Program-made: the position numbers and the translations under genes
Shown here: positions 7,475 through 52,499 of the stretch, in pieces
Position numbering within the stretch: position 1 is the first letter of the stretch
Layout of the letters: every line of letters starts with the position of its first letter
Assembly (NCBI GenBank): GCA_019247495.1
Contig: JAFAOU010000003.1
Location: 2,011-66,010, forward strand
Origin: Acidobacteriota bacterium
GTDB taxonomy: Bacteria; Acidobacteriota; Thermoanaerobaculia; Gp7-AA8
Reading direction: 5' to 3'
DNA length: 64,000 nucleotides
Notes under the pieces: model-generated
Database searches by the model: none
What the model was told of the DNA's origin: nothing
The model's input: only the letters and a program-made list of their open reading frames with translations

Positions 7475-7573
7475 CGCGGTCAAAATAACCTATTTGGGTC
7501 AATCGCGGTCAAAAAAAGGCCTGACCCCGCGTCATCCTGACCCGCAAATCGCCGCTTCTACCCTGCAACCGCG

Positions 7574-7588
7574 TGGCACCGCGCTTGG
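7574..7588 (+). promoter_or_regulatory. Putative sigma54 (-24/-12) promoter
   Basis: TGGCAC-N5-TTGG versus consensus TGGCAC-N5-TTGC, ~30 nt before a strong RBS (AAAGGAG). Repeated GGTCA/TGACC boxes upstream (7477-7545). Confidence 0.4.
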
Positions 7589-9742: not shown

Positions 9743-9832
9743 CCTTTGGGTTGCGGGCAAAGCCCGCGCTGTGACGTTGACGTGACCTCTGTCATCAATG
9801 TTGCGCGCGTGCCGTCTGTATCATCGGCACCG

Positions 9833-12211
9833 ATGCGCGCTCGTTCCCTCGCCTTGCTCCTCCTCATCGCATCCGCCGCGCATGCCGCGACTTTCATCGT
9901 CCCCTCGGATCGCGCGCTGGTCACGGCGTCGAAGGCGATCGTTGTCGCCACCGCGGGAGCGTCGCATGGACGGCGCGCGCCGGGCGGATGGATTGAAACC
10001 GTGACGGAGTTACGCGTCGAGGAAGCGATCAAAGGTCCGGTCGCGGCAGGGGAGAGCATTCGCGTCACGGAGTTGGGCGGGATGGTGGGCGACATCGGCT
10101 ACGTCGTCGCAGGGAGCCCGAGGTATGCCGAAGGGCAGCGCGTGCTGCTGTTTCTGGAGACGAACGATCGCGGCGAGTGGGTGTCAAAGAACATGGCCGT
10201 CGGCAAGTTCGACTATGCCGGCGATGTCCGCGGGCGGCAGTTGCTGGTGCGAGATGCGAGCGAAATCGTCGGATGGGAAACTGATGGCGACGTTCATCGC
10301 GAGCCGGTGCGGCTGGAACAGCGCTTCCTCAATTTCGTCCGCGCCACCGCGAAGGGTCTCGTCGCCGATGTCGATTACATCGTCCGCGATCCCCAGCCGC
10401 TGCGGCGTGTCGTAGCCGAGTCGACCGCGGAGGCGTTCGCGCCAAGCTCCTATCTTTTGCAGGGTGGCGGCGGCCTCGGCATCCGCTGGGCGAGCTTCCC
10501 GAGCGCCGTCGTTTTTCTCAGCCACGGCACGCAGCCGGGCGCGCTGAACGGCGGACTTACCTCGATTCAGCGCGCGCTCGCGGCGTGGACCAACGACGCC
10601 GGATCGAACATCGTCTACAGCTACGGCGGCACCACGACGATCGCGCAGACAGGCTTCGGTTCGGGCGGCAACTCCGACGGCGTCAACACGATTCAATTCA
10701 ACGATCCGGCCGGCGAGATTCCGGGATCGTTCACGGGGGCCGGCGGCTCGACCCTGGCCATCGGCGGCGCGTGGTTCGGCAGCGCCAAACACAGCGCAAA
10801 CGGCGAGCAGTACTTCACGATCGGCGAGGCCGACCTCGTCGTGCAGGACGGCATCAGCGGCGCGGGGCTGACCGGCAACGGCTTCGATCACGTCCTCACG
10901 CACGAGCTTGGACACACGCTCGGCCTTCGCCACTCCGACAAGACTCCGAGCGATTCCGGTACGTGCAGCGCGCCGCTGGACTGCTCCGATTTCGCAATCA
11001 TGAAATCGAGCGTCGCCTTCAATTCCGATCCGATCGGATCCGCGCTGCAGGCGTGGGATATCGCCGCCATCGACGCCGTCTACGGTTCGGGTGTGGTCGG
11101 TCCGCCGCCGTGCAATCCGCCGCACATCGCCAGCGCGCCGCAGACCACCAGCGTCGGAACGACGGCGGTGACCTTCACCGTCAGCGCGACCGGCGACGCG
11201 CCGCTGCGCTATCAGTGGTACCTCGGCGCGACCGGCAACACCGCCGCTCCGATCAGCAACGCCACGACCACATCGCTGACGGTCAATCCGGTCGTGACCA
11301 CCGCGTACTGGGTGCGCATCACGAACGATTGCGATCCGCCGGCCGACAGCGGGACGGTCTTCGCCATCGTCAACAACTGCCCGCCCGTGACGATCAGCTC
11401 GCAATCGCCCGACGCCACGATCCTCGAAGGACACTCGACCACGCTCACCGTCTCCGCGAGCGGCGGAACGGTTTCGTATCAGTGGTACGCGGGAAAAACC
11501 GGCGTGACGTCATCGCCCGTCAGCGGCGCAACCGGCAGCAGCCTGACCGTGACGCCGTCGATCACCTCGTCCTACTGGCTGCGCGCGTCGAACAGTTGCG
11601 GATCGTCGCTCGACAGCAACACGATCACGATCACCGTCCTGCCGTGCGCCGCGCCGAAGTTCGTCGTCCAGCCGCCCAGCGCGAACATCGTCTCCAACTT
11701 CGGAACCACGCTCTACTCCGCGGTCACAGGCACGCAGCCGATCGCCTATCAATGGTACGAAGGCACCTTCCCCGACACCTCCCATCCCGCCACCAACGGC
11801 AACTCGGCGACTCTGGCGGTGCCGTCACTGGTCGCGTCGGCATCGTTCTGGCTGCACGTGTCGAGCGAATGCGGCGCGGCGGACAGCGCCACCGCGCGAT
11901 TGACGGTGGTGCAGTCGTGCGCGCCGCCGACGATCTTCTCGCAGCCGCAGAATCAGAGCGTCGCCTCGGGATCGAACGTCGTCGTTTCGATCGTCGCTGG
12001 CGGCGCCTCCCTCTCCTTCCAGTGGTACCAGGGCCCAATCGGCGACTTCACGCATCCGATCGGCGGCAACGCGCCATCCGTCTTCGTCCCGTCGATCACG
12101 ACGGCGACACAGTTCTGGGTGCGCATCGGCGGACCATGCGGCAGCGTGGACAGCAGCGTGGCCACGGTGTCCGTTGCGACGACGCCACGGCGGCGCGCGG
12201 TGGGGCGGTAG
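9833..12211 (+). CDS. Secreted matrixin-like (M10/M57-type) zinc metalloprotease with C-terminal Ig-like repeats
   Basis: Signal peptide; HELGHTLGLRH zinc motif and downstream Met-turn (AIM); YQWY...YWVR Ig repeats; ends TTPRRRAVGR. Start reassigned to ATG 9833. Confidence 0.85.
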   Translation: MRARSLALLLLIASAAHAATFIVPSDRALVTASKAIVVATAGASHGRRAPGGWIETVTELRVEEAIKGPVAAGESIRVTELGGMVGDIGYVVAGSPRYAEGQRVLLFLETNDRGEWVSKNMAVGKFDYAGDVRGRQLLVRDASEIVGWETDGDVHREPVRLEQRFLNFVRATAKGLVADVDYIVRDPQPLRRVVAESTAEAFAPSSYLLQGGGGLGIRWASFPSAVVFLSHGTQPGALNGGLTSIQRALAAWTNDAGSNIVYSYGGTTTIAQTGFGSGGNSDGVNTIQFNDPAGEIPGSFTGAGGSTLAIGGAWFGSAKHSANGEQYFTIGEADLVVQDGISGAGLTGNGFDHVLTHELGHTLGLRHSDKTPSDSGTCSAPLDCSDFAIMKSSVAFNSDPIGSALQAWDIAAIDAVYGSGVVGPPPCNPPHIASAPQTTSVGTTAVTFTVSATGDAPLRYQWYLGATGNTAAPISNATTTSLTVNPVVTTAYWVRITNDCDPPADSGTVFAIVNNCPPVTISSQSPDATILEGHSTTLTVSASGGTVSYQWYAGKTGVTSSPVSGATGSSLTVTPSITSSYWLRASNSCGSSLDSNTITITVLPCAAPKFVVQPPSANIVSNFGTTLYSAVTGTQPIAYQWYEGTFPDTSHPATNGNSATLAVPSLVASASFWLHVSSECGAADSATARLTVVQSCAPPTIFSQPQNQSVASGSNVVVSIVAGGASLSFQWYQGPIGDFTHPIGGNAPSVFVPSITTATQFWVRIGGPCGSVDSSVATVSVATTPRRRAVGR

Positions 12212-12400
12212 CTGTCATCCTGAGCCGCCGGAGGCGTTGGAGCGCGAAGCGCGGAACGCCGTAGGACGGTCGAAGGACCCCCTCAATGCTTGCATCGTGA
12301 TTTACCGCCGCCCGTCCCTGGTTAACAGGAAGGGGGTCCTTCGACCGTCCTGCGCTGCTCCGGCTTCGCCGAAGCAAGCTCCGGCGGCTCAGGATGACAG
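12212..12400. repeat. CTGTCATCCTGAG...CTCAGGATGACAG palindromic element (CGTC-type REP/MITE-like), copy 1
   Basis: Long terminal inverted repeats plus inner GGACGGTCGAAGGACCCC/GGGGTCCTTCGACCGTCC arms; closely related copy at 36150-36336. Confidence 0.8.
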
Positions 12401-12416
12401 GTACACTCCGCGCCGA

Positions 12417-14774
12417 ATGTCATTAACGCTGTACATCGCGGTGGCGCTCCTGCTCTTGTGGATCGCGCACCGCGCGCTGCTGCCGCTGTCGCGCGTCGCG
12501 GCGCTCGCGCTGATCCTCCTGCCGATGTGCATCACCGGCAAGGCCTTGCTCACCGGTGGCGTTTTCGGTCCGGTCGATCTGCCGTATTTCACCGAGCCGC
12601 TGCGCGACATGCGCGTGCCGCTCGGCGTGCCGAAGCCGCATAACGGACTGCTGTCCGATCTTTACGCGCAGATGATCCCGTGGCGGAAGGCGGTGCAGTT
12701 CTCGATTTCGCACGGACGATGGCCGCTCTGGAATCCGTTCATCCTTTCCGGGACGCAACTGGCCGCGGCCGCGCAGCCGGCGGCGTATTCGCCATTCACG
12801 TTGATCGCCTGCCTCCTGCCGGTCGCGCACAGCATCACCTTCTCGGCGGCGATGACGTTCTTTCTCGCCGGCCTCGGCGCCTTTCTTTTCGCGCGGGAGC
12901 TCGGCTGCCGCGAATCGGTCGCGCTATCCGCCGCTGCCGGCTGGATGTACGCCGGCGGCATGGCCTTCTTCGTCCTCTGGTCGCTCGGCAGCTCGTGGGC
13001 TTTTCTCCCATTCGTTTTCTTCGCGACACGCCGTTGCGTCCACGCGCCGGGAGTGCGATCGGCGGCCATTCTCATGATCGTTCTGACGCTGCTCCTCCTG
13101 GCCGGCCATCCCGAAACGGCGTTCCACGTCGTTTTCTGCGGCGCGCTGTACGGCCTCGCCGAACTGCTCGCTCTCCGGAGAAACATTGCGCGCGTCCTCG
13201 GCACTGCCGCAGCCGCGGGCGGCATCGCGCTCGCGCTGGCGGCGATCTATCTGATGCCGATGTTCGAGGCAGCGCCGCAGACGATGGAGCAGCAGTTCCG
13301 CATGGGCGGCTACCGCGACCTGCCGCGCGGCGTGCCGTTAGCCGAGAGTGGCGCGCGCATCCTCAGCGACTTTTTCCCGCACCTGCGGGGCCGGTGGTGG
13401 AATCGCAAGGTTCCGCACTGGGTGCCGATCGAGACCTCCGCCGCCGGCAGCATCGTCGTGGCGCTGGCCATCTATGCGCTCATCCGCGTGCGGCGCCGCG
13501 AGATCGCTTTCTTCGGCGGCTTGGCGCTCTTCGGAATCCTCTGCGGCGCCGATTGGTCGCCGCTCGCCGCGCTGCTGCAGAAGCTCCCGCTGTTCGACAT
13601 CGCCCTCAACGAGCGCTTCACCTTCGCCGCCGCCTTTTCGCTGGTGATCCTGGCGTGCCTCGGCATCGAGCACGCCGTCGCAACGCGCGACAAAACCCTC
13701 GGCTACGCGCTCGCCGCCGCCGCGCTTCTTTTCGCCGCCGGCGCATTCACGATCGACCGGATGCACATCATCCAGGACAAGCTCCCCGAGTGGGGCGTCT
13801 ACACCCGCTTCGGCGAGCTGGCCGGCATAGGTCTCGCGGCCGCGGCCGTGCTCGCGTTGCAGAAGTCGCGCGAGAACGCGATTGGCATCGCCTTACTTCT
13901 GCTGATCACCGCGCAGCGCTGGCTGGCTGGACGCGACATCTATCCCACACTGCCCGCGTTCGCAGCGTATCCGCCCGTACCGATCCTCAGCTCGTTGCCG
14001 CGCGAGACCGGCGAGCCGTTTCGCATCACCGGCCGCGCGCATGCGCTCGTGCCCGGAACGAGCGCGCTCTACGAGCTGGAAGACGTCCGCGGCTACGAGG
14101 CCATGACCTTCTCACGCTACGTGGCCACGTATGACGCGTGGTGCACGCATCAGCCGGTCTGGTTCAACCGCGTCGACGATCTGACCAAGCCCTTCCTCTC
14201 CATGCTCAACGTCCGCTACGCCATCGCCTCGGACGACGTACCCGCGCCCGACGGCTGGCGGCGCGTGGCGGTGCAGCGCGGCGCGCAACTGCTGGAGAAC
14301 ACGCGCGTTTTTCCGCGCGCCTTCATGCCGTCGCGCGTCGTGTTTGGAACGCCGTTCGACGGCATCACCAAGGCTTTGATTGCCGCGCCCGACTTCCACG
14401 AACGCGCCTGGATCGAGGCGCCGCTCCCGCCCGGCGAGCGCGCCAACGACGGCGGCATTGTGGCCGCCGTGAAGCGCGACGACGACGGCGATCTGATCGT
14501 CGATACGGCCACCGCCGCCGGCGCCTGGGTGGTGATCACCGAGCCGGCCTGGGATGGCTGGCGCATCTACATCGACGACCGCCGCGTCGAGCACTTCTAC
14601 GCGAACGCCGCCTTCCTCGGCGTCTACGTTCCGTCCGGCGGCCACCGAATCCGCCTGACCTTCCTGCCGATGAGCTTTGTGCGCGGCCGGGCCATCTCTC
14701 TCTCGACGCTGGCCCTCCTCCTCGGCGCCACCATCGCCGCGAGAATCCGCCGCCGCCGTGTAACGTTGGCGTGA
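12417..14774 (+). CDS. YfhO-like GT-C membrane glycosyltransferase
   Basis: WPLWNPFILSG, LLAGHPE, DVRGYEAM, C-terminal WDGWRIYID...NAAFLGVYVPSGGHRIRLTF plus TM helix. Start reassigned to ATG 12417; the upstream extension runs through the repeat. Confidence 0.8.
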   Translation: MSLTLYIAVALLLLWIAHRALLPLSRVAALALILLPMCITGKALLTGGVFGPVDLPYFTEPLRDMRVPLGVPKPHNGLLSDLYAQMIPWRKAVQFSISHGRWPLWNPFILSGTQLAAAAQPAAYSPFTLIACLLPVAHSITFSAAMTFFLAGLGAFLFARELGCRESVALSAAAGWMYAGGMAFFVLWSLGSSWAFLPFVFFATRRCVHAPGVRSAAILMIVLTLLLLAGHPETAFHVVFCGALYGLAELLALRRNIARVLGTAAAAGGIALALAAIYLMPMFEAAPQTMEQQFRMGGYRDLPRGVPLAESGARILSDFFPHLRGRWWNRKVPHWVPIETSAAGSIVVALAIYALIRVRRREIAFFGGLALFGILCGADWSPLAALLQKLPLFDIALNERFTFAAAFSLVILACLGIEHAVATRDKTLGYALAAAALLFAAGAFTIDRMHIIQDKLPEWGVYTRFGELAGIGLAAAAVLALQKSRENAIGIALLLLITAQRWLAGRDIYPTLPAFAAYPPVPILSSLPRETGEPFRITGRAHALVPGTSALYELEDVRGYEAMTFSRYVATYDAWCTHQPVWFNRVDDLTKPFLSMLNVRYAIASDDVPAPDGWRRVAVQRGAQLLENTRVFPRAFMPSRVVFGTPFDGITKALIAAPDFHERAWIEAPLPPGERANDGGIVAAVKRDDDGDLIVDTATAAGAWVVITEPAWDGWRIYIDDRRVEHFYANAAFLGVYVPSGGHRIRLTFLPMSFVRGRAISLSTLALLLGATIAARIRRRRVTLA

Positions 14775-14843
14775 CGAGCGACACAATTCCTGGAGCGCCA
14801 GGCCGTACAATCCCGAGACCCATTCACAGAGAGACCCCTTTTC

Positions 14844-17510
14844 ATGCGAATCCTCGTTCGGTTATTGATCGTTTCGTTTCTTGCGGCTGCGACCTCGCTG
14901 CAAGCCATCACCTACATCGTTCCGACCGATCGCGATCTGATACACGACGCGGACGCGATCGTTCTTGCGAAGGCAATGTGTTCGTACTCGCAAGTCTCAG
15001 CTGATGGTCGGATCGTCACGATTGCGGAACTCGACGTGACCCGTTCGCTCAAAGGGGCTTTCCGCAAGGGAGACACTCTTCGCCTCAGCGAGATTGGCGG
15101 AAGCCTGACGAATATAACGCTCGCCGTTCCAGGCTCCCCACGATACGAGAACGGGGCCGACTACCTCGTGTTCGTGGCGGTGAGTCCGTCAGGGGAGACA
15201 GCCACCTATGGCATGGGTCTCGGGCGCTTCAAGAAAGTGACTGACCTTCACGGACTTACGACGTTTTCGCGCGGCATCGACACGGAGTCGATCTTCGGGT
15301 TTGACGCGAACGGCGGTTCCCACAAGGAGTTGGAGCGAGATGCTGTTCGCTTCCTTTCGTTTATTGAAAGGACGGTTGCGAATCAGCCTGCATCCGCCGA
15401 GTACTACGTTCCCGAACGTGAGATTACGCGGGCTCCGTCTTCGCAGAGTTTCGTGCCGCGAGCTACGGCTGGTTCATCGCGCGGTGACTATCTCTCGACG
15501 GGGAATGCCCGCTGGCAGACGCCAACAGCGCAGTGGTTCTCGTATCACACCCAAACGGGATATTCGGGCGGCGGGATCCCCGCTCTTCAAAATGCGCTTG
15601 GACAATGGGGAAGTGCTGGGGTTGGAATCAACTACACATACGGTGGCACCACTCTCAATCATGCTGGTCTGCACGGCGCGTCAGATTCGACCAACACCGT
15701 GATCTTTGATGACGCCGATGGCTTTGTCGCGCAGCAAAGAACGCAATTTCATAATCCCAATATCGCAGCGATTGGCGGTGCGTGGTATCCGAATACGACC
15801 TACCCGCTCGGCGGCGAAAATTTTCACCCTACCTCGGAGGGGGACGTAGAGGTCGGAACCACGATTTCTGGTGTCAGCGAAACACAGTTCGCGATGATCC
15901 TGACGCATGAGCTGGGGCACACACTGGGTTTTCGACACTCGGATCAGACCGCGGCAAACGATCCGAACACTCCATGTACCGCACCACTGCCGTGCGCTGG
16001 CGCGCTAAGTCCACCGCCGCCACCTGCCTATGCGCACGCAGTTATGGAGTCATCCGTTTCATTCTCTATCTCAGGCCTGCAGCAGTACGACCTTGACGCC
16101 GCCCAAACCGTCTACGGCAGCGGTCCTGTTTGCACTCCGCCGTCGATTGGAACCCAACCGTCCGGCGTGACAATCACCGCGGGACAACAGACCACGTTGT
16201 CCGTCGGCGCGACCGGAACGGGCCTCACGTATCAGTGGTACATCGGCAGCGCGAGCAGCACGACAACGCCGGCGCCGGGAGGCACCAGCAGCCAGTTGAC
16301 GGTTTCCCCGAGCACGACCACGAATTACTGGGTTCGCGTAACAGGCCAGTGCGCACCGGCTGCGGACAGCCGCACCGCGACCGTCACCGTCAACTGCGCG
16401 CCGCCGTCCGTTCCAACGCCGAACGCCTCGCCATCCTCGATAGCCGCCGGACAATCGAGCACTCTCTCCGCCTCGCCCACCGGCAGTGGACCATTCACCT
16501 ATCAGTGGTACACCGGCAATTCGGGCGATACATCGAGCCCGATCGCCGGCGCGACGAACTCCTCGACGAGCGTCAGTCCGGCGGTGACCACGAACTACTG
16601 GGTCAAGGTGACCGGCCAATGCGGAACGTTCAATAGTCCGGCCACGACTGTCAGCGTCGCCTGCACGCCGATCGCGGCGGGCGGCGTCGGGGCACAACCT
16701 CCGACGATCAATCCGGGACAGTCGTCCACGATTTCCGTTACCACGAGCGGCACCGGTCCCTTCACGTTCCAGTGGTATCGGGGAAGCCTCGGCGATTTCT
16801 CAAACCCAATCGCGGCCACCAGCAGCACGCTAGTCTCCCCAGCCGCGAACACGACGTATTGGGTTCGCGTCACCGCGCCGTGCGGCTCGCAGGACGGCAG
16901 CGTCACTGTGTTCGTAAATGTGCCTTGCACGCCGTCGTCGATCACTACTCACCCGGCGTTCGCGACGATCGCCCCGGGAGCGTCGGCGACGCTGACCGTC
17001 GTCGCCGCCGGAAGCGCTCCCATTTCCTACCAGTGGTACACCGGCACTTCGGGCAACACCGCCAGCCCGATCGCCGGCGCCACCAACGCCTCCGTCACCG
17101 TGACACCCACCGTAACGACGTCGTACTGGGTGCGCGTGTCGAACAGTTGCAATCAGACGGGCAACAACAGCACCACGGCGGTCGTGACGGTATCGGCGAA
17201 CTGCCCCGCGGCGACGATCACGACACAACCTGCGGGCGTTTCCGCCGGCATCGGAACCGCCGCCACGCTGAAGGTGGTCGCAACCGTCACCGGAACCACC
17301 ATTCATTACCAGTGGTACAAGGGCGCGAAGGGCGATCTCTCAACGAAAGTCGGCACCGACTCCGACACCTTCACTACCGGCGCGGTCAGCGTCACTACGA
17401 GTTACTGGGTTCGCCTGACCTCGGCCTGCAACACCCTGACGTTCACCGACAGCAACGCCGCCATCGTCACCGCAACCGCGACCCCCAAAGGACGCGCGGT
17501 ACGACATTGA
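14844..17510 (+). CDS. Secreted matrixin-like zinc metalloprotease with Ig-like repeats (paralog of 9833-12211)
   Basis: Signal peptide; HELGHTLGFRH; Met-turn AVM; five YQWY...YWV Ig repeats; ends ATPKGRAVRH. Confidence 0.85.
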   Translation: MRILVRLLIVSFLAAATSLQAITYIVPTDRDLIHDADAIVLAKAMCSYSQVSADGRIVTIAELDVTRSLKGAFRKGDTLRLSEIGGSLTNITLAVPGSPRYENGADYLVFVAVSPSGETATYGMGLGRFKKVTDLHGLTTFSRGIDTESIFGFDANGGSHKELERDAVRFLSFIERTVANQPASAEYYVPEREITRAPSSQSFVPRATAGSSRGDYLSTGNARWQTPTAQWFSYHTQTGYSGGGIPALQNALGQWGSAGVGINYTYGGTTLNHAGLHGASDSTNTVIFDDADGFVAQQRTQFHNPNIAAIGGAWYPNTTYPLGGENFHPTSEGDVEVGTTISGVSETQFAMILTHELGHTLGFRHSDQTAANDPNTPCTAPLPCAGALSPPPPPAYAHAVMESSVSFSISGLQQYDLDAAQTVYGSGPVCTPPSIGTQPSGVTITAGQQTTLSVGATGTGLTYQWYIGSASSTTTPAPGGTSSQLTVSPSTTTNYWVRVTGQCAPAADSRTATVTVNCAPPSVPTPNASPSSIAAGQSSTLSASPTGSGPFTYQWYTGNSGDTSSPIAGATNSSTSVSPAVTTNYWVKVTGQCGTFNSPATTVSVACTPIAAGGVGAQPPTINPGQSSTISVTTSGTGPFTFQWYRGSLGDFSNPIAATSSTLVSPAANTTYWVRVTAPCGSQDGSVTVFVNVPCTPSSITTHPAFATIAPGASATLTVVAAGSAPISYQWYTGTSGNTASPIAGATNASVTVTPTVTTSYWVRVSNSCNQTGNNSTTAVVTVSANCPAATITTQPAGVSAGIGTAATLKVVATVTGTTIHYQWYKGAKGDLSTKVGTDSDTFTTGAVSVTTSYWVRLTSACNTLTFTDSNAAIVTATATPKGRAVRH

Positions 17511-17811: not shown

Positions 17812-19113
17812 CTACATCGTGTCCAGCTGCTTCTTCATCGACGCGATCATGCCTGGACTGACCTGTTCGCCGGGAAGTGACTGCGCGTAGGTGATCGCTT
17901 CTTCGATCGTTTTGCGCGCGGATGCCTTATCGCCTTTCGCCAGGTAGGTCGCGGCGCGGCTGCGGTAGATGCCGATCTTGCGCGGGCCGTAGGCGAGTTT
18001 GAGCGCGCGGTCCGATGCGGCGAGGGAATCGTCGAAACGTCCGGCGGCGCGGTAGGCAGAGATGAGGCGCGCCGGCGGGTTGTAGTCCTTCGGCAGATCG
18101 CGTTCGGATTGCTCCAGCATGGCGATGGCCTTCTCGGGCTGCTTGAGTCCGAGGTAGACCTCGAGCCGGTGCGAATCGTAGACGGCACGCGCGTCGGGAT
18201 TCTTCGCTTTGGCTGCTTCGCCTTCCAGGAACGCCGCCCACTCCTCGCGGAGTTTGCGCGCCGAGGTTTCGTCTTTGGCTTCGTCGCGGGCGTCGACGAG
18301 CGATTCGTAAAGTCCGGAGCGGTCGTCGGCGGACATCTTGATCTTGTCCGCCGCGGCGAGCGTTTCGCGCGTCGCTTTCTCCAGTCCTGCCGTCAGCTCG
18401 GAACGGTTCCATGATTTCGCATCGAGGTTGGTCGCGCAGGAGAGTCCGGTCGCCGCGACGTTGACCGCCGATCCTGTTCCGCGAACGCGCGGATACAGCG
18501 CGAGGGCGCGCTCGGCGCATTGCTGCGAATTCTGACTCTGCAGCAGCGCGAAGACGAGCGATTCGGAAGCGCGTCCGAGCCGCGGCCAATCTTTCGGCGC
18601 CGCAGCGATTGCCTCATCGAACGCTTTCGCGGCCTCGGCCTGCTTCCCTTGTCCGGCCAGCGCATCGGCGCGGACCAGGAGCGTGTCGGCCTTCGAATGC
18701 GATCCGCGGAAGGCGTGCTGGCCGTCATCGAGCAGCTTGCGGACCTGCGGTACGGTGCCGCCGCCTGCATAGCGGAAGATGACCTTGTCTTTCGGATCGA
18801 GGACGAGCAGCGTCGGCCAGACGCTGATCGGATGCGCTTTCAGGAATGCGGTGTTCTTCGCGTCTTCCGTGTCGATCGAGAGCCAGACAAACTGTCCGGC
18901 GTACCGCTCGAGGGATTTGTCCGTGAAGACATAAGCCCTCATCGAGCGGCAGGTGTGTCACCAGGGCGCCCACGCCTCGACGAAGACCGGAAGGTCCGCC
19001 GATTTCGCGCGGGCGATCGCTTTGGTGTAGTCGTTCTCGATCCACGGCAGGACTTCTTTCGCCTGAGCCGCGGACGCAACGAGCAGGAGCGATGCGAGCA
19101 GGAGTCGTTTCAT
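17812..19113 (-). CDS. Secreted thioredoxin-family + TPR protein with in-frame UGA (probable selenoprotein, UxxC)
   Basis: ATG 19113 gives signal peptide MKRLLLASLLLVASAAQA, then WIENDYTKAIARAKSADLPVFVEAWAPW-[TGA 18960-18958]-HTCRSM, in frame with ORF 17812-18942 (cis-Pro motif VWPT, TPR repeats). Confidence 0.82.
18904..18949 (-). promoter_or_regulatory. Candidate bacterial SECIS hairpin
   Basis: Starts 9 nt after the UGA: CCGCUCG-AUG-AGGG...UGUC-UUCACG-GACA...CCCU-CGAGCGG, a multi-segment stem. Confidence 0.55.
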
Positions 19114-19151
19114 GGCGCGAAAGTGTAATGCACTGACTGTTCCGCTTCATT

Positions 19152-19216
19152 TTCAACCACAGAGGCACAGAGAACACAGAGGGATTTCTCTGTGCCCTCT
19201 GTGTCTCTGTGGTGAA
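19152..19216. repeat. 9-mer tandem inverted repeat (ACACAGAG type), copy 1
   Basis: accacagaggcacagagaacacagag...ctctgtgccctctgtgtctctgtggt; related copy at 56612-56672. Confidence 0.75.
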
Positions 19217-19227
19217 ATGATTTTTCG

Positions 19228-21329: not shown

Positions 21330-22820
21330 TTGCCCGATGTTCTCCTGCGGGAGCTTCCCGACGCGGTCGCCATCACCTCGCCAACGGGCGAAATTGTCTA
21401 CTGGAACGCGGGCGCCGAACGGCTGTTCGGATATTCGAGCGCCGATGCGCTCGGCAGCTCGATCGACTCGCTGATTGTCCCGTACGGACACGTAGACGAC
21501 CTCGGTCAGTACCGGCGCGAAGCGCTTACCACCGGCTTCTCGACCTTTGAGACGGCACGGCTTCGCAAAGACGGCTCGCTCATCCACACGGTCGTTTCGA
21601 ACAAGGCGGTATACGACGCCGAGGGGCGCGTCGAGCTCCTCGTCATCACGCAGAAGGACATCACGCATCTCAAGGTGTTGCGCGATGCAAAACTCGTCGA
21701 GTCGCAGTACCGCGATCTTCTCGAATCGACGCCCGACGCCATCATCATGGCCAACCAGACGGGGCGCATCGTCCTGGCGAACAGCCAGGCCGAGAGGCTG
21801 TTCGGGTACGACCGCGGCGAGATGCTCGGCACGCTCGTCGAAGTCCTGCTGCCCAGCCGCTATCGCGGCGGGCACGTCGCGCACCGTTCCGGCTACTTCG
21901 GTCAGCCGCGCACGCGGTCGATGGGTGCGGGCCTGGAGTTGTACGGACTGCGTAAGGACGGCAGCGAGTTCCCGGTCGAGATCAGCCTCAGCCCTCTGAA
22001 GACTGACGGCGGCACGCTGGTGATGAGCGCGATCCGCGACATTACGTATCGGAAGGGCATCGAGAACGCGTTGCAGGAAAAGAACGTCGAGCTCGAGCGC
22101 GCCATCCAGGCCAAGGATCGGTTTCTGGCCAGCATGTCTCACGAGCTGCGCACGCCGCTGAACGGCATCATCGGATTTGCCGAGTTTCTGTCGGACCGCA
22201 AGCCGGGGCCGCTCAACGACAAACAGAAGGAGTACCTCGGCGACATCCTCAACAGCGGCCGGCATCTGCTTCACCTCATCAACGACATGCTCGACCTGGT
22301 CAAGATTCAGGCAGGACGCGTCGACCTAGTGCTGGAACGATTTTTACTGAGTGAGGCCATCAATGAAGTCTGCACGGGCGTGCATCCGCTGGCGGTCAGC
22401 AAAGACATCGACGTACGCGTCACGATCGAGAACGGCCTCGATTCCGTCACCCTCGACAAACAACGCGTCAAACAGATCCTCTACAACCTGCTCTCGAATG
22501 CGCTGAAGTTCACCGATGAGCACGGGCATGTCGGCATCGACGTCACGTCCTTCGACCAGGAGCGTTTCCGCCTGGTCGTTTCCGACGACGGCATCGGTAT
22601 TCGGGCCGAGGACATCGGGCGGCTCTTCACGGAGTTCGAGCAGTTGGAGACGGGCACGGCGCGGCGTTTCGGCGGCACCGGGCTCGGGCTGGCGCTGACG
22701 CGGAAGCTCGTCGATCTGCTCGGCGGAGCGATCGACGTCGAAAGCGAGTTTGGGAAAGGAAGCCGCTTCGGCGTGATCCTGCCACTGGCGATCGAGAGCG
22801 AAGATCGAGGCGGGCAATGA
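21330..22820 (+). CDS. Cytoplasmic PAS-PAS sensor histidine kinase
   Basis: Two PAS domains; H-box FLASMSHELRTPLNG; N box NLLSNALKFT; G boxes DDGIGI and GGTGLGL. TTG start uncertain. Confidence 0.9.
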   Translation: MPDVLLRELPDAVAITSPTGEIVYWNAGAERLFGYSSADALGSSIDSLIVPYGHVDDLGQYRREALTTGFSTFETARLRKDGSLIHTVVSNKAVYDAEGRVELLVITQKDITHLKVLRDAKLVESQYRDLLESTPDAIIMANQTGRIVLANSQAERLFGYDRGEMLGTLVEVLLPSRYRGGHVAHRSGYFGQPRTRSMGAGLELYGLRKDGSEFPVEISLSPLKTDGGTLVMSAIRDITYRKGIENALQEKNVELERAIQAKDRFLASMSHELRTPLNGIIGFAEFLSDRKPGPLNDKQKEYLGDILNSGRHLLHLINDMLDLVKIQAGRVDLVLERFLLSEAINEVCTGVHPLAVSKDIDVRVTIENGLDSVTLDKQRVKQILYNLLSNALKFTDEHGHVGIDVTSFDQERFRLVVSDDGIGIRAEDIGRLFTEFEQLETGTARRFGGTGLGLALTRKLVDLLGGAIDVESEFGKGSRFGVILPLAIESEDRGGQ

Positions 22821-24349
22821 TGGCGCAGCAGGTTCTCAGCGAGGAGCGATTCCGCTCGGCGCTCGAAAATCTGAGAGAAGGCTGCCAGATCATCGGGCGA
22901 GACTGGCGCTATCTCTATCTGAATCCTGCCGCCGCACGGCATGGGCAGTCGTCCGTGGAGGCTCTCGTCGGACGGACGATGATGGACGCATATCCGGGCA
23001 TCGAGACGACGCCGACGTTCGCCCTCTTGCGCGAGTGCATGGAGCGCGGGACCAGCACGACGACCGAGAGCCTGTTCGAGCTGCCGGATGGATCGGTCGG
23101 ATGTTTCGAGATCGTCATCCAACCAGTGCCGGAAGGTTTGTTCGTCAGGTCTCTCGACATCACGGAAAAGAAGCGCGCCGAGACCTCCCGCCGGGATACC
23201 GAGGCCCTGTTCAACGCCTTCATGAGCGCAAACCCAGCCATGGCATGGATGAAAGACGAGGACGGCCGCTACACCTACGTCAACAAGACCGTCAGCGAAG
23301 TCGTGGGTGCCGACACGAATCAGTGGCTCGGCAGGAATGGGTCCGACCTTTTCGGAGCCGAGCGGGGGGAGTTGGTGCGGCAGAAGGATCGCGAAGTGCT
23401 CGAACGCAACGAGCCGATCGAGGTCGTTGAACTCATGCTCGTGGGCGGCGAAACGCGCTTCTGGGACACGATCCGGTTTCCGTTCACGTCGCCGGACGGA
23501 CAACGCTTCGTCGGTGGCATCGCCATCGACATCACCGCATTGCGCGAAACCGAGGCGCAATTGCGGGAAGCGACGGCAGACCTCGAACGGAAAGTCTGCG
23601 AACGGACCGCCGAACTGCAAGTCGCCAAAGAAAGGGCTGAAGCGGCGGGGCGGGCCAAGTCAGACTTTCTGGCCTCCATGAGTCACGAGTTGCGCACGCC
23701 ACTCAACGGCATCATCGGATTCACCGAATTCATGATCGACGGCAAGCCTGGCCCGCTCAACGAGAAGCAGAAAGAGTACCTCGCCGATGTCGGGGCCAGC
23801 GGCCGACACCTCCTGCAACTCATCAACGATCTGCTGGATCTCGCCAAGGTCGAAGCGGGGAAGATGAGCTTGTACCCGGAGCCCTTCAGGATCGTGAACG
23901 TGATCGAGGAAGTGCGCGCGGTCATGAGGCCGCTGGCGGAGCAGAAAAGCATCGTCATCTCGATTTCCGTTGCGCCGCTGCTCGATGTGGTGGTGCTCGA
24001 TCAACAGAAGTTCAAGCAGGTACTCTACAACCTGCTGTCGAATGCGGTGAAGTTCACCGGGCCCGGCGGGTGCGTGGCTGTTTCCGCTGTGCCGCACGGG
24101 GTATCGCATTTTACGATCACCGTCTCCGACACCGGCATAGGCATCAAGGCCGAGGACATGACACGGCTGTTCACCGACTTCGCGCAGCTCGATGATGCGC
24201 GGACCCACGGTGGAACAGGACTCGGCCTCGCACTGACACGCCGGCTCGTGGAACTGCACGGCGGCTCGATCAGTGTCACCAGCGAATTCGGCACAGGCAG
24301 CACGTTCACCGTCGTACTGCCGCTCTCCGTCGAAGGAGCGCGCGATTGA
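22817..24349 (+). CDS. Cytoplasmic PAS-PAS sensor histidine kinase
   Basis: SHELRTPLNG, NLLSNAVKFT, DTGIGI, GGTGLGL. Confidence 0.92.
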   Translation: MMAQQVLSEERFRSALENLREGCQIIGRDWRYLYLNPAAARHGQSSVEALVGRTMMDAYPGIETTPTFALLRECMERGTSTTTESLFELPDGSVGCFEIVIQPVPEGLFVRSLDITEKKRAETSRRDTEALFNAFMSANPAMAWMKDEDGRYTYVNKTVSEVVGADTNQWLGRNGSDLFGAERGELVRQKDREVLERNEPIEVVELMLVGGETRFWDTIRFPFTSPDGQRFVGGIAIDITALRETEAQLREATADLERKVCERTAELQVAKERAEAAGRAKSDFLASMSHELRTPLNGIIGFTEFMIDGKPGPLNEKQKEYLADVGASGRHLLQLINDLLDLAKVEAGKMSLYPEPFRIVNVIEEVRAVMRPLAEQKSIVISISVAPLLDVVVLDQQKFKQVLYNLLSNAVKFTGPGGCVAVSAVPHGVSHFTITVSDTGIGIKAEDMTRLFTDFAQLDDARTHGGTGLGLALTRRLVELHGGSISVTSEFGTGSTFTVVLPLSVEGARD

Positions 24350-24732
24350 GCGCGGCATGCATCCTCGTTGTCGATGACAACCCCACGAACCTGAAGCTCG
24401 TGTCGGACATACTGCAGTTCGAGGGGTATCAAATCCTGAAGGCTAGCGACGCCGAGTCAGCCAGGCAGATGGTCCACGATACTCCGCCCGATCTGATCTT
24501 GATGGACATCGCGCTACCCGGTATGGATGGCCTCACGCTCACGCGGCTGCTGAAAGCGGACGAAACGACTCGGCACATCGTCATCGTAGCGTTGACCGCC
24601 TTCGCAATGAAAACCGACGACGCTCGCGCACGCGAGGCGGGCTGCGACGGCTACATTACCAAACCCATCGACACGCGGACGCTGCCCGGCACGGTGGCCG
24701 GCTACCTTCGCGGAATCCGAGGCTCCTCATGA
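24346..24732 (+). CDS. Single-domain response regulator (DivK/CheY-like)
   Basis: ILVVDD, DLILMDIALPGMDG, ALTAFAM, YITKP. Confidence 0.9.
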   Translation: MSAACILVVDDNPTNLKLVSDILQFEGYQILKASDAESARQMVHDTPPDLILMDIALPGMDGLTLTRLLKADETTRHIVIVALTAFAMKTDDARAREAGCDGYITKPIDTRTLPGTVAGYLRGIRGSS

Positions 24733-25112
24733 AAATCCTCGTCGTAGAAGATCAGCCGGCAGAGTTGAAACTGGCCGTGCACGTGCTCAGTGCCGCCGGA
24801 TTCGAGGTCGATCAGGCCGTAGCGGCGGAACAGGCCATCGCCGCGATCAAGGAGGACCGGCCGCAGATCATTTTGCTGGACCTGTCGCTGCCCGGTGTGG
24901 ACGGCCTGACACTCGCACGCAAACTCAAAGCGGATCCGTCCACGCGCGAAATCCTCATCGTCGCGATCACTTCCTATCCTGAGAGATTCCCGATGGCCGA
25001 AGCGCTAGCCGCCGGATGCGACGCCTATCTGCCCAAGCCGGTCAGCACGCGCACGCTGCCCGAAACACTTCGAACGGTGATGAAAAACGCGGAGGGCGAC
25101 GGAGATCGATGA
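24729..25112 (+). CDS. Single-domain response regulator
   Basis: ILVVED, ILLDLSLPGVDG, YLPKP. Confidence 0.9.
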   Translation: MKILVVEDQPAELKLAVHVLSAAGFEVDQAVAAEQAIAAIKEDRPQIILLDLSLPGVDGLTLARKLKADPSTREILIVAITSYPERFPMAEALAAGCDAYLPKPVSTRTLPETLRTVMKNAEGDGDR

Positions 25113-51695: not shown

Positions 51696-52499
51696 ATGCT
51701 CCGCGACAAGCTGATGCACCACGATCCGGTCGACGGTTTCCGTTGGCGCAGTCACGAGATCACGCGCGTGGAAGGCTTCAGCGACGCCGTCTTCGGCTTC
51801 GCGGTGACGCTGCTGATCGTGTCGCTCGAAGTGCCGCGGACGTCGGGTGAGTTGCTGGCCACGATGCGCGGCTTCGGCGCATTCGTCATCACCTTCCTGA
51901 TGCTGGCCGGGCTCTGGTACTCGCAGTTCACCTTCTTCCGGCGCTACGGGCTGGAAGATCGTGTCACGGTGATCCTGAATCTCGTGCTGCTGTTTATGGT
52001 GCTGTTCTTCGTCTATCCGTTGAAGTTTCTGTTCAACGTGATGCTGACGGATTTTCGGATGAAGCAGACCATCGCCACCGCCCACGGCATGGAGTTGGTG
52101 GTGCTGCCGGAGCACAAGCCGCTGATCTTCGCCATCTTCGGCGCCGGGTTCGCCGGCGTGATGGTGGTCTTCACGCTGCTGTACCGCCATGCCTTCAAGA
52201 AGCGCGAAGAGCTTGAACTGAATGAGTTCGAGATTTTCGAAACGGAGCACAGCGTCCGCCGTCTCTCCGTCGCCTCGGCGGTCGGCTTCTCCTACTTCCT
52301 GATCGCGGGGCTGAACGCGCTGCCGCATCGCACGAAGATGGAGAAGAACATCGTCACAGCCGCGGCGATCGCCATCCTGATTCTCCTCGCCGGCCTCATG
52401 ACGATGATGGTCCGCCTGGCGCTCGCGCGGCGGAAGCGCGCTAAGGAATGGAAGCAACGGAACGGTCCGCAGCCAGGCGATCCGTCCGCTACTTCCTGA
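51696..52499 (+). CDS. TMEM175 (DUF1211) family potassium channel
   Basis: RVEGFSDAVFGFAVTLL signature, ~6 TM helices. Confidence 0.85.
   Translation: MLRDKLMHHDPVDGFRWRSHEITRVEGFSDAVFGFAVTLLIVSLEVPRTSGELLATMRGFGAFVITFLMLAGLWYSQFTFFRRYGLEDRVTVILNLVLLFMVLFFVYPLKFLFNVMLTDFRMKQTIATAHGMELVVLPEHKPLIFAIFGAGFAGVMVVFTLLYRHAFKKREELELNEFEIFETEHSVRRLSVASAVGFSYFLIAGLNALPHRTKMEKNIVTAAAIAILILLAGLMTMMVRLALARRKRAKEWKQRNGPQPGDPSATS

What the first reader, a model, noticed from the sequence alone, without database searches (positions are those of the whole stretch)
17812..19113. Hidden selenoprotein: secreted thioredoxin-TPR with UxxC active site and SECIS-like hairpin
Seen: the ORF track starts at 18942, but reading from ATG 19113 gives a signal peptide and a thioredoxin N-terminus. 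TGA at codon 52 sits exactly at the nucleophilic Cys position (WAPW-U-HT-C), and a stable hairpin begins 9 nt downstream (18904-18949). Established: bacterial Sec insertion uses UGA plus an adjacent downstream SECIS. Inference: an exported Sec-thioredoxin fused to TPRs. Caveat: the apical loop (UUCACG) lacks the G typical of the E. coli-type SECIS, so the element may be lineage-specific.
Basis: partly seen in the sequence, partly recalled or inferred. Interest (0 to 1): 0.8.

Follow-up and report, generated by a model that had tools for sequence, protein, structure and literature searches.

The report
Hidden secreted thioredoxin-TPR selenoprotein gene
A gene that databases cut short at an apparent stop codon most likely encodes a full-length exported thioredoxin-like enzyme with selenocysteine in its active site, and many related soil bacteria share it.

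Summary
Window 19113..17812 (-) is one 433-codon frame interrupted only by TGA at codon 52 (18960-18958), in the motif WAPW-U-HT-C of a Thioredoxin_7 domain that is followed by a TPR domain.

The genome (Thermoanaerobaculia, Acidobacteriota) has tRNA-Sec, selA, selB and a Sec-containing selD. In 61 related genomes, 37 of the 39 strongest matches carry one in-frame TGA and 2 are Cys forms. The TGA sat at the same codon in every locus I read. Two independent DNA assemblies confirm it.

The downstream hairpin is real. It folds better than shuffles (z -3.6), shows compensatory changes, suppresses synonymous variation over codons 50-78, and is lost in 3 of 4 Cys-encoding homologs.

It fails one rule of the consensus bacterial SECIS model: no G in the first two apical-loop positions. 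Three other selenoprotein genes or candidates in this genome have canonical G-loops, so the oddity belongs to this gene family and is not lineage-wide.

Public databases mostly hold the truncated ~376-aa "TPR repeat protein". I found no NCBIfam model or published catalogue entry for the family. It is a new member of a known kind, with moderate interest. Selenium incorporation and function remain untested.

The parts
17812..19113 (-). Full selenoprotein gene: 433 codons plus TAG stop, with TGA = Sec at codon 52
   Evidence: Orthologs match residues 1-433 across the TGA. Third-codon-position changes dominate upstream of the TGA as they do downstream.
19060..19113 (-). Predicted Sec-type signal peptide (residues 1-18, MKRLLLASLLLVASAAQA, cleavage after AQA)
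   Evidence: By inspection; the pattern is kept in orthologs. AlphaFold pLDDT is below 50 for residues 1-16. A divergent member (G329) has a lipobox-like LAAC instead. No signal-peptide predictor was run.
18958..18960 (-). UGA selenocysteine codon (codon 52), the first position of the U-x-x-C redox motif
   Evidence: TGA at this codon in 29 of the 30 first loci and in the distant ones read. TGC/TGT in Cys forms. No differences in two independent DNA assemblies.
18949..18951 (-). TGC codon 55, the resolving Cys of U-H-T-C
   Evidence: Invariant C55 in alignment A2.
18706..19044 (-). Thioredoxin-fold domain (residues about 24-136)
   Evidence: Pfam Thioredoxin_7 3.9e-10, Thioredoxin 4.4e-07. Best PDB sequence match 2kuc_A, 1.2e-11. 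AlphaFold beta-alpha pattern over residues 24-136.
17818..18693 (-). All-helical TPR domain (residues about 141-432) with invariant C199 and C226
   Evidence: Pfam TPR_12, TPR_2, TPR_14. AlphaFold helices 141-432 at pLDDT above 90. Foldseek matches TPR superhelices, TMq 0.37-0.42. Invariant cysteines.
18896..18964 (-). SECIS-like multi-tier hairpin: basal helix including UG of UGA, helix CCGCUC/GAGCGG, helix GAGGG/CCCUC, apical mini-stem with loop UUCACG (18927-18922)
   Evidence: covariation; lost in 3 of 4 Cys forms; synonymous constraint over codons 50-78.
18886..18896 (-). Small 3' hairpin GAC[A/G]-GUU-[U/C]GUC with a G-first triloop, 65 nt after the UGA
   Evidence: RNAalifold: pair 74-78 is GC in 17, AU in 7, AC in 3. 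Found in 24 of 30 distinct sequences. Its role is unknown and it lies outside the 16-37 nt range of the bSECIS model.
17812..18942 (-). The truncated ORF (376 aa) that standard gene callers report
   Evidence: 113 of the 120 best database proteins are 282-378 aa and cover at most 87% of the query.

Best explanation
This is a genuine selenoprotein gene, misannotated as a truncated TPR protein. Shown or strongly supported: UGA codon 52 is recoded as selenocysteine by the genome's own selA/selB/selC/selD system, helped by a conserved mRNA hairpin that starts about 7-9 nt after the UGA. Inferred: the product is exported (signal peptide; a lipobox in a divergent subgroup). It would act in the cell envelope as a selenol/thiol-disulfide oxidoreductase. 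Sec52 would be the attacking nucleophile and Cys55 would resolve the mixed selenenylsulfide. The roughly 290-residue TPR superhelix would hold a client or partner protein. The oxidised U-C pair would be recycled by a membrane electron donor such as the genome's single DsbD-family protein. The direction of the redox reaction (reduction or oxidation) and the substrates are unknown.
For: One frame with a single TGA in the W-U-H-T-C motif of a Thioredoxin_7 domain. Machinery: tRNA-SeC, selA 477 bits, selB 361 bits, selD 368 bits with its own TGA. Of the 39 matches at E <= 9.3e-57 in 61 related genomes, 37 have exactly one TGA and 2 have none. In a phylum sample of 401 genomes, 25 have the family. 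Of the 22 matches that cover the N-terminus, 20 carry a TGA and 2 do not, and both of those read as Cys forms. The TGA is at the same codon in all loci read. All seven full-length database homologs I fetched read CHTC. Upstream codons evolve as coding sequence in the same frame: differences at positions 1/2/3 are 1718/1130/3279. Hairpin: z -3.62. 88.3% of pair cells are paired against 33-51% when partners are slid, and 6 pairs change on both sides against 2-3. Sec forms average -25.4 kcal/mol (n=36), while Cys forms give -8.7, -12.1, -16.3 and -24.9. Codon entropy is 0.54 bits inside codons 50-78 against 0.97 outside, with 0 of 10,000 permutations as low. DNA contigs from two other samples cover the TGA with 0 differences, and one metatranscriptome contig bridges it with TGA intact. 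AlphaFold model: pLDDT 93.3, Trx fold plus TPR superhelix. One DsbD_TM protein is encoded elsewhere in the genome.
Against: There is no direct evidence of selenium in the protein. The apical loop has no G in its first two positions, so the hairpin fails one of the four constraints of the published bSECIS model, whereas selD, a Prx-like gene and an AhpD-like candidate in the same genome satisfy it. No Rfam family matches. The covariation controls have known weaknesses: the structure was derived from one of the aligned sequences, the sequences are related, and the region is coding. RNA evidence is one low-depth contig from an RNA library, which the tool warns does not prove transcription. The signal peptide was judged by eye only. 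No redox partner or substrate gene is adjacent.
Confidence: 0.9

Rival explanations
1. The TGA is a true stop. The locus then encodes a 51-aa peptide and a separate 376-aa TPR protein that starts at ATG 18942, as current annotation has it.
For: Gene callers and public databases report the 376-aa form: 113 of the 120 best hits are 282-378 aa. ATG 18942 is present in most Sec forms.
Against: The stop would cut a thioredoxin fold inside its CxxC motif. Cys forms are continuous proteins. The upstream 24 codons are under coding constraint in the same frame. The paralog in G006 has a TGA but no ATG after it (CRLLKAE), so restart cannot be general. The downstream ORF would lack the signal peptide.
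Confidence: 0.04
2. The TGA is a nonsense mutation (a pseudogene) or an assembly or sequencing error in this genome.
For: This would be the default reading of an isolated in-frame stop.
Against: The same TGA occurs in 36 distinct sequences from many assemblies, at identities down to about 35-40%. Two independent DNA runs cover it with 0 differences. The rest of the gene is intact and conserved.
Confidence: 0.01
3. The UGA is recoded, but the long hairpin is not the SelB-binding element. SelB would bind something else, for example the weak GCUC-GAUGA-GGGC hairpin 14 nt downstream or the 3' GUU triloop. Or another amino acid such as Cys is inserted part of the time.
For: The apical loop lacks the G that canonical SECIS elements in the same genome have. 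The GUU mini-hairpin occurs in 24 of 30 sequences, with A-U/G-C covariation at pair 74-78. GCC-GGA codons are fixed in Sec forms but not in Cys forms.
Against: The GAUGA hairpin occurs in only 11 of 30 distinct sequences and shows no covariation. The GUU loop is 65 nt from the UGA, outside the 16-37 nt range of the model. The long hairpin is the element that covaries and that is lost in Cys forms.
Confidence: 0.05

Closest known systems
Thioredoxin-fold UxxC selenoproteins of bacteria (Sec-thioredoxin PF00085; thiol:disulfide interchange protein PF13098), as listed in the 2026 catalogue of prokaryotic selenoproteins (PMC13188914; passages seen)
   Same: Trx fold with Sec as the first residue of U-x-x-C, Cys-containing homologs, and the SECIS inside the coding region just after the UGA. 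The protein scores just above the Pfam cut-offs of both families: 30.3 bits against 23.5, and 28.5 against 27.
   Different: The best Pfam match is Thioredoxin_7 (PF13899). The Trx domain is fused to a roughly 290-residue TPR domain and preceded by a signal peptide. The review's main text has 0 occurrences of TPR, tetratricopeptide or PF13899.
Trx7/PDZ domain-containing (seleno)protein, NCBIfam NF041199
   Same: A Thioredoxin_7-type domain fused to a protein-binding module, with known Sec forms.
   Different: The score is 19.8 bits against a cut-off of 300. There is no PDZ domain. The catalogue gives its motif as CxxU, whereas this protein has UxxC.
CnoX / YbbN of E. coli and Salmonella (PDB 3qou, 3qdn), a thioredoxin + TPR protein. 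Its 'chaperedoxin' function is recalled and comes from no call.
   Same: N-terminal Trx domain followed by a C-terminal TPR domain. Both structures appear among the top 8 Foldseek hits, E about 1e-5.
   Different: TMq is only 0.20-0.21 with rmsd about 24 A, so the domain arrangement or size differs. This protein has a signal peptide and a much longer TPR domain. No sequence-level PDB hit extends beyond residue 137. It has Sec in place of Cys.
Consensus bacterial SECIS (bSECIS model; Fig. 2 legend of PMC13188914, read)
   Same: A stem-loop directly downstream of the UGA within the ORF. The apical loop is 4-6 nt, the spacing is 30-31 nt (allowed range 16-37), and the MFE is far below -7.5 kcal/mol.
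   Different: No G in the first two loop positions. The hairpin is unusually long and multi-tiered (about 65 nt), and its base pairs with the UGA itself. BSepDB reports 87.4% of its entries as having a canonical SECIS (passage seen), so non-canonical elements are a known minority.

Membership tests
Bacterial SelB/SECIS-dependent selenoprotein gene | In-frame UGA at a position occupied by Cys in homologs | tested here: met
   TGC/TGT at the same codon in G046, G025, G429, L069 and L073, and CHTC in the 7 full-length database proteins fetched.
Bacterial SelB/SECIS-dependent selenoprotein gene | UGA conserved among orthologs | tested here: met
   37 of 39 strong matches in 61 relatives. 20 of 22 matches covering the N-terminus in a 401-genome phylum sample. 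Codon-level check. The matches in G114, G140, G098, G398, G264, G323, G069, G397, G309, G117, G348, G402 and G405:C8 were counted only as '1 TGA inside the match' and were not read at codon level.
Bacterial SelB/SECIS-dependent selenoprotein gene | Conserved stem-loop immediately downstream of the UGA | tested here: met
   z -3.62. Covariation. Lost in 3 of 4 Cys forms. Synonymous constraint.
Bacterial SelB/SECIS-dependent selenoprotein gene | bSECIS model: loop 3-9 nt, upper stem 4-16 bp, 16-37 nt between UGA and loop, MFE <= -7.5 kcal/mol | tested here: met
   Loop UCAC or UUCACG at spacing 31 or 30, a 4-5 bp mini-stem on top of further helices, -32.2 kcal/mol.
Bacterial SelB/SECIS-dependent selenoprotein gene | bSECIS model: G in one of the first two apical-loop positions | tested here: not met
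   The loops are UUCAC(N), UACAC(N) or CUGACG. No G-first hairpin within the 16-37 nt range is shared by more than 16 of 30 distinct sequences. Three other genes in the same genome do meet this rule.
Bacterial SelB/SECIS-dependent selenoprotein gene | Genome encodes tRNA-Sec, SelA, SelB and SelD | tested here: met
   the three protein families score above their curated cut-offs.
Bacterial SelB/SECIS-dependent selenoprotein gene | Selenium found in the protein | not testable with these tools
   Needs 75Se labelling or mass spectrometry.
Pfam Thioredoxin_7 (PF13899) | HMM score above the gathering cut-off, with a CxxC-type motif | tested here: met
   40.2 bits against 27, residues 24-107, motif U-H-T-C.
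NCBIfam NF041199 Trx7/PDZ (seleno)protein | HMM score above the cut-off, and a PDZ domain | tested here: not met
   19.8 bits against 300. No PDZ hit in Pfam.
CnoX/YbbN thioredoxin-TPR proteins | Trx domain followed by a TPR domain | tested here: met
CnoX/YbbN thioredoxin-TPR proteins | Superposable overall fold or sequence relatedness across both domains | tested here: inconclusive
   Foldseek E about 1e-5 but TMq 0.20-0.21 and rmsd about 24 A. Sequence hits in the PDB are confined to residues 7-137.
CnoX/YbbN thioredoxin-TPR proteins | Cytoplasmic protein without a signal peptide (recalled property of CnoX) | tested here: not met
   N-terminal MKRLLLASLLLVASAAQA|K, kept in orthologs, and lipobox-like LAAC in G329. 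By inspection only.
DsbD (NCBIfam NF001419) | HMM score above the cut-off | tested here: not met
   31.8 bits against 330; only the C-terminal Trx-like part of the profile matches.

The most novel reading that the evidence does not exclude
The family carries a distinct class of bacterial SECIS. It is a roughly 65-nt multi-tier hairpin whose base pairs with the UGA itself and whose conserved apical loop UUCAC(N) has no G. Yet it would be read by the same SelB that serves canonical G-loop SECIS elements in selD and the Prx-like gene of the same genome. One version of this reading is that the long hairpin acts as a spacer, bringing the invariant 3' GAC(R)-GUU-(Y)GUC triloop next to the UGA, so that the SelB-binding site is 'split' from the recoding site.
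Probability: 0.2. Interest if true: 0.7.

Novelty: new member of a known kind. Interest (0 to 1): 0.5.

Why it matters
The annotation is systematically wrong for a widespread soil lineage. 113 of the 120 best database relatives are stored truncated at 282-378 aa, and the named ones are mostly called "TPR repeat protein" or "hypothetical protein". As a result an exported redox enzyme, and part of selenium use in Acidobacteriota, goes unseen.

The family adds a Thioredoxin_7-TPR fusion to the list of Trx-fold selenoproteins, and Sec is strongly preferred over Cys in it. It also offers a clean natural experiment on SECIS recognition: one genome and one SelB, three canonical G-loop elements and one conserved G-less element backed by covariation. 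That makes the question of what SelB actually requires directly testable.

Tried and rejected
1. One search chose the strand by fewest stops and picked the antisense frame in 4 of 30 loci, because high-GC antisense frames are open. redid it by the reported strand.
2. One search printed nothing (a script filter was too strict); it was redone.
3. The de novo genome scan for in-frame TGAs with coding-like GC3 on both sides gave 1233 candidates, or 456 with loose redox motifs. That was too noisy to use. A strict filter left 36, of which I judged only this gene, a Prx-like gene and an AhpD-like candidate plausible. The scan is not a selenoproteome.
4. Pfam on the 85-aa N-terminal fragment of the AhpD-like candidate found nothing at E <= 0.01. 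Its family label rests on the recalled CxxU motif only.
5. I enumerated hairpins that meet the bSECIS G-loop rule. None within the 16-37 nt range is shared by more than 16 of 30 distinct sequences.
6. Rfam at E <= 10 gave no SECIS hit. The only hits were sub-threshold miRNA-like matches on the intergenic hairpin and other weak matches.
7. The search of earlier findings returned nothing for this genome.
8. Synteny: the upstream amidohydrolase is kept in closer relatives, down to orthologs at about 61-66% identity (L033-L036, L067). It was not detected in loci L037-L043, and of L069-L076 only L069 and L071 gave any hit, to the M57/Ig protein. No functional link was drawn.
9. RNA run X19: its longest piece reaches only 28 nt beyond the TGA, below the tool's 31-nt rule, so I did not count it as bridging.
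10. Small-share sequencing runs were not used to name a habitat.
11. I could not compute the C199-C226 distance because the model coordinates are not readable by scripts.
Full report
**Observation.** On the minus strand, ATG 19113 opens a frame that runs to TAG 17814-17812 and is interrupted once, by TGA at codon 52 (18960-18958). Standard ORF calling splits it into a 51-aa ORF (18958..19113) and a 376-aa ORF that starts at ATG 18942. Read through, the protein has 433 residues. The N-terminus MKRLLLASLLLVASAAQA|KEV looks like a Sec-type signal peptide; I judged this by eye, because no predictor was available. It is followed by ...FVEAWAPW-U-HT-C-RSM.... Pfam places residues 24-107 in Thioredoxin_7 (40.2 bits, cut-off 27), with weaker Thioredoxin and Thioredoxin_2 hits, and several TPR families over residues 142-411. 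The TGA falls on the first Cys position of the CxxC motif.

**The hairpin.** RNA 18965-18890 folds to -32.2 kcal/mol. Dinucleotide shuffles give -21.0 +/- 3.1, so z is -3.62 and 0 of 200 shuffles fold as well. The full structure has four parts:
- a basal helix that pairs UGGUG (including UG of the UGA) with CGCCGG;
- helix UGCCGCUC/GAGCGGUA;
- helix GAGGG/CCCUC;
- an apical mini-stem closing UCAC (or UUCACG).

**Sec machinery.** The window lies on contig C210 of a 5.30-Mb assembly with 247 contigs and 62.8% G+C. ARAGORN finds one tRNA-SeC with anticodon TCA on C90. selA (477 bits), selB (361 bits) and selD (368 bits) all score above their NCBIfam cut-offs, and selD itself contains one in-frame TGA.

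**Homologs in relatives.** I searched 61 related genomes with the read-through protein. Of the 39 matches at E <= 9.3e-57, 37 carry exactly one in-frame TGA and 2 carry none. In the 30 loci fetched, the TGA is at the same codon (W-U-H-[T/S]-C) in 29, and the thirtieth (G046) has TGC. One search had misread four of these loci on the wrong strand. More distant homologs (G026, G024, G054, G058, G030, and a second tandem copy in G033) and a paralogous subgroup with W-U-YSC (G006, G031, G010) also have the TGA there. G025 has TGC.

**Homologs across the phylum.** In an even sample of 401 genomes of the phylum, 25 have the family at E <= 1e-40. Of the 22 matches that cover the N-terminus, 20 carry one TGA and 2 (G046, G429) carry none. 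G429 reads APW-C-HTC. Four matches covered only the TPR part. I examined two of them. G329 is a divergent Sec form (WAPW-U-HSC). The G405:C30 locus starts at the same post-TGA Met. It appears to be the same contig end as L075, with matching contig length and downstream peptide, and L075 carries the TGA. That identity is my inference. G214 and G420 were not examined.

One of the TGA genomes, G042, is unpublished. No conclusion depends on it, and it was left out of my alignments.

Record titles from genome contigs place the family in Thermoanaerobaculia and other Acidobacteriota MAGs. One Cys form at 44% identity comes from a bin labelled Proteobacteria.

**Evidence against a sequencing error, and for one reading frame.** Contigs from two other DNA samples cover the TGA with 0 differences: X2 over 18860-19113 and X3 over 18506-19113. 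A 249-nt contig from a soil metatranscriptome library (X20, 18798-19046, 7 differences, none at the TGA) bridges it. The tool warns that presence in an RNA library does not prove transcription. Among orthologs, the 24 codons before the TGA differ mostly at third positions (1718, 1130 and 3279 differences at positions 1, 2 and 3). The pattern matches a downstream control region (2286, 1248, 3154) and breaks down in a shifted frame.

**Is the hairpin a functional RNA element?** Four tests bear on this.
1. *Covariation.* I aligned 27 of the 33 distinct 81-nt sequences then in hand. I left out 2 Cys forms, 3 paralogs with a one-codon length difference, and G042. With the MFE structure, 88.3% of 702 pair cells are standard pairs, against 32.8-50.9% when the 3' partners are slid by 1-3 columns. 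Six pairs change on both sides, against 2-3. The covariation score is 0.131, against 0.025-0.066. None of 500 column shuffles reaches the observed values. Pair 30-54 uses GC 16, CG 3, GU 3, AU 2 and UA 1. Pair 33-51 joins two third-codon positions (Ala GCN and Lys AAR) and uses CG 12, UG 5, UA 4 and GC 1, with 5 unpaired. There are caveats: the structure came from one of the aligned sequences, the sequences are related, and the region is coding.
2. *Natural control.* The 51-nt core folds to a mean of -25.4 kcal/mol (mean z -4.3 against mononucleotide shuffles) in 36 distinct TGA sequences. The four Cys-encoding homologs give -8.7, -12.1, -16.3 and -24.9. The last is G046, which I take to be a recent conversion; that is an inference.
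3. *Synonymous constraint.* In 28 Sec-form genes there are 224 conserved, degenerate codon columns. The mean codon entropy is 0.54 bits for residues 50-78 and 0.97 bits elsewhere. None of 10,000 random column sets scores as low, and the lowest 25-residue bin is 51-75. The TGA column itself, which has zero entropy by construction, is one of the 23 inside columns.
4. *Codon choice.* Sec forms use GCC (28 of 28) and GGA (26 of 28) for Ala72 and Gly73, which pair with UGG-UGA. Cys forms with the same residues use GCG-GGC or GCC-GGC. That is only two informative cases.

**Comparison with the consensus SECIS.** The bSECIS model in PMC13188914 (section 5 and the Fig. 2 legend, read in full) sets four requirements:
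- a 3-9 nt apical loop on a 4-16 bp stem;
- G in one of the first two loop positions;
- 16-37 nt between the UGA and the loop;
- MFE <= -7.5 kcal/mol.

This element meets all but the G rule: the loop is UCAC or UUCACG at spacing 31 or 30. No alternative G-first hairpin within range occurs in more than 16 of 30 distinct sequences.

In the same genome, three other genes have the canonical form:

| Gene | Hairpin | Spacing after UGA |
|---|---|---|
| selD | GGGUC-AGGAU-GACCU | 16 nt |
| Prx-like gene on C179 (AhpC-TSA 1.6e-13 on its C-terminal part) | GCCCGGC-AGUUG-GCCGGGC | 16 nt |
| AhpD-like CxxU candidate on C2 (family label recalled; Pfam found nothing on the fragment tried) | CGCUGC-GGUCG-GCAGCG | 17 nt |

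The G-less loop is therefore a property of this gene family and not of the lineage.

A small 3' hairpin, GAC(R)-GUU-(Y)GUC, has a G-first triloop and occurs in 24 of 30 sequences. Its inner pair 74-78 is GC in 17 sequences, AU in 7 and AC in 3. It lies 65 nt from the UGA, and its role is open. No Rfam family matches the region.

**The protein.** I aligned 21 sequences, a mix of Sec forms and Cys forms. Invariant residues include U/C52, C55, the putative cis-Pro P100, and two further cysteines, C199 and C226. The assignment of P100 as the cis-proline is recalled thioredoxin-fold knowledge and was not tested.

AlphaFold2 gives pLDDT 93.3 and pTM 0.88. Residues 1-16 score below 50, residues 24-136 form a thioredoxin fold, and residues 141-432 are entirely helical. 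C199 lies near the start of helix 196-210 and C226 near the end of the next helix, 215-228. A stapling disulfide is plausible there, which would fit an exported protein. I could not measure the distance.

Foldseek matches TPR superhelices best (designed CTPR proteins and LGN, TMq 0.37-0.42). It also lists the two-domain Trx-TPR proteins YbbN/CnoX (3qou, 3qdn) at E about 1e-5, but at TMq 0.20-0.21 and rmsd about 24 A. By sequence, the closest solved chain is 2kuc_A, a putative disulphide-isomerase (1.2e-11). It is followed by thioredoxins and the C-terminal domain of DsbD, and all hits lie within residues 7-137.

**Genomic context.** The neighbours give no clue to function: an amidohydrolase upstream on the same strand, a convergent M57-peptidase/Ig protein downstream, and PAS histidine kinases beyond. 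The genome has one DsbD_TM protein, on C28 (154 bits). It lies next to a 297-aa Trx-like paralog, so a periplasmic reducing pathway exists.

1. Sec52 attacks a substrate disulfide or another oxidised species.
2. Cys55 resolves the selenenylsulfide intermediate.
3. The TPR domain binds the client or a partner.
4. The protein is recycled through a DsbD-like donor.

**What public resources hold.** Of the 120 best relatives among 5.8 billion proteins, 7 are 433-437 aa and cover at least 95% of the query, and all 7 read CHTC. The other 113 are 282-378 aa and cover at most 87%. Where they are named, the names are "tetratricopeptide (TPR) repeat protein", "hypothetical protein" or "thiol reductase thioredoxin".

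No NCBIfam model reaches its cut-off. The selenoprotein models TsoB and Trx7/PDZ score 28.4 against 805 and 19.8 against 300.

**What is in print.** I checked four sources by term search over their main text:
- PMC13188914, the 2026 catalogue: 0 occurrences of TPR, tetratricopeptide, PF13899 or Acidobacteri. I saw passages, the outline and section 5.
- PMC9312934: 0 occurrences of TPR or tetratricopeptide (passages).
- PMC12013277, deep-Sep: 0 occurrences of TPR, tetratricopeptide or thioredoxin (passages).
- PMC13326102, BSepDB: 0 occurrences of TPR, tetratricopeptide, thioredoxin or Acidobacteri (passages).

Full-text searches gave the following results:
- selenoprotein + thioredoxin-like + tetratricopeptide + bacterial: 5 papers, none relevant by title or abstract.
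- Thermoanaerobaculia + selenocysteine: 0 papers.
- UxxC + TPR + selenoprotein: 0 papers.
- Two broader searches led to the reviews above.

Supplementary tables were closed, including BSepDB's list of 111 families. The family may therefore already be counted there under a generic thioredoxin name.

**Verdict.** This is a real, conserved and systematically misannotated selenoprotein gene: an exported Thioredoxin_7-TPR protein with U-x-x-C. Its SECIS-like hairpin is well supported but non-canonical. It is a new member of the well-known class of Trx-fold selenoproteins. Selenium incorporation, export and function have not been tested.

Noticed in passing
window 19114-19227 (hairpin about 19146-19221): The intergenic region between the amidohydrolase and the selenoprotein gene holds a long near-perfect hairpin (-55.6 kcal/mol) built from three CACAGAG units facing three CTCTGTG units. 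The motif CACAGAG-N(1-3)-CACAGAG occurs 210 times in the genome counting both strands, so this looks like a dispersed REP-like palindromic element. Rfam gives only sub-threshold miRNA-like hits.
   Followed up: partly
G000:C163:24659-25594 (+): selD of this genome is itself a selenoprotein gene (GG-U-ACK), with a canonical SECIS option GGGUC-AGGAU-GACCU 16 nt after the UGA.
   Followed up: partly
G000:C179, TGA at 52171 (+); G000:C2, TGA at 5910 (-): Two further likely selenoprotein genes outside the window. One is an AhpC/TSA-like protein with GYW-U-AYC (Pfam 1.6e-13 on the part after the TGA). The other is a CxxU candidate (NGCEF-U) whose AhpD/CMD-like label is only recalled. Both have strong canonical G-loop hairpins 16-17 nt after the TGA.
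   Followed up: partly
G000:C28:36055-38184 (+): The only DsbD_TM-family gene (600-aa frame, 154 bits) lies next to a 297-aa Trx-like paralog of the query. It is a possible envelope reducing module.
   Followed up: no
L036 (G033:C30:1828-4425): One relative carries two tandem copies of the Trx-TPR gene, both with the TGA. A separate paralogous subgroup with W-U-YSC and a one-codon-shorter hairpin region occurs in G006, G031 and G010.
   Followed up: partly
window 9746-17510 (+): Two large proteins with Ig_7/CHU_C-type Ig repeats flank a protein with a YfhO-like C-terminus. The one at 14844-17510 also has an M57-type HExxH peptidase region.
   Followed up: no
window 21330-27901 (+): Three consecutive PAS-domain histidine kinases; the last is a hybrid with two receiver-domain matches.
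   Followed up: no
G000:C193, complement 7514-7587: ARAGORN reports a tRNA of undetermined identity with a four-base anticodon (tgat). This may be a prediction quirk or a tRNA with an expanded anticodon loop.
   Followed up: no
L078 (G329:C13), residues upstream of the Trx domain: The divergent subgroup (G329 and related loci L074-L076) appears to replace the AxA signal peptide with a lipobox-like LAAC, which suggests a lipoprotein version of the same selenoprotein.
   Followed up: no
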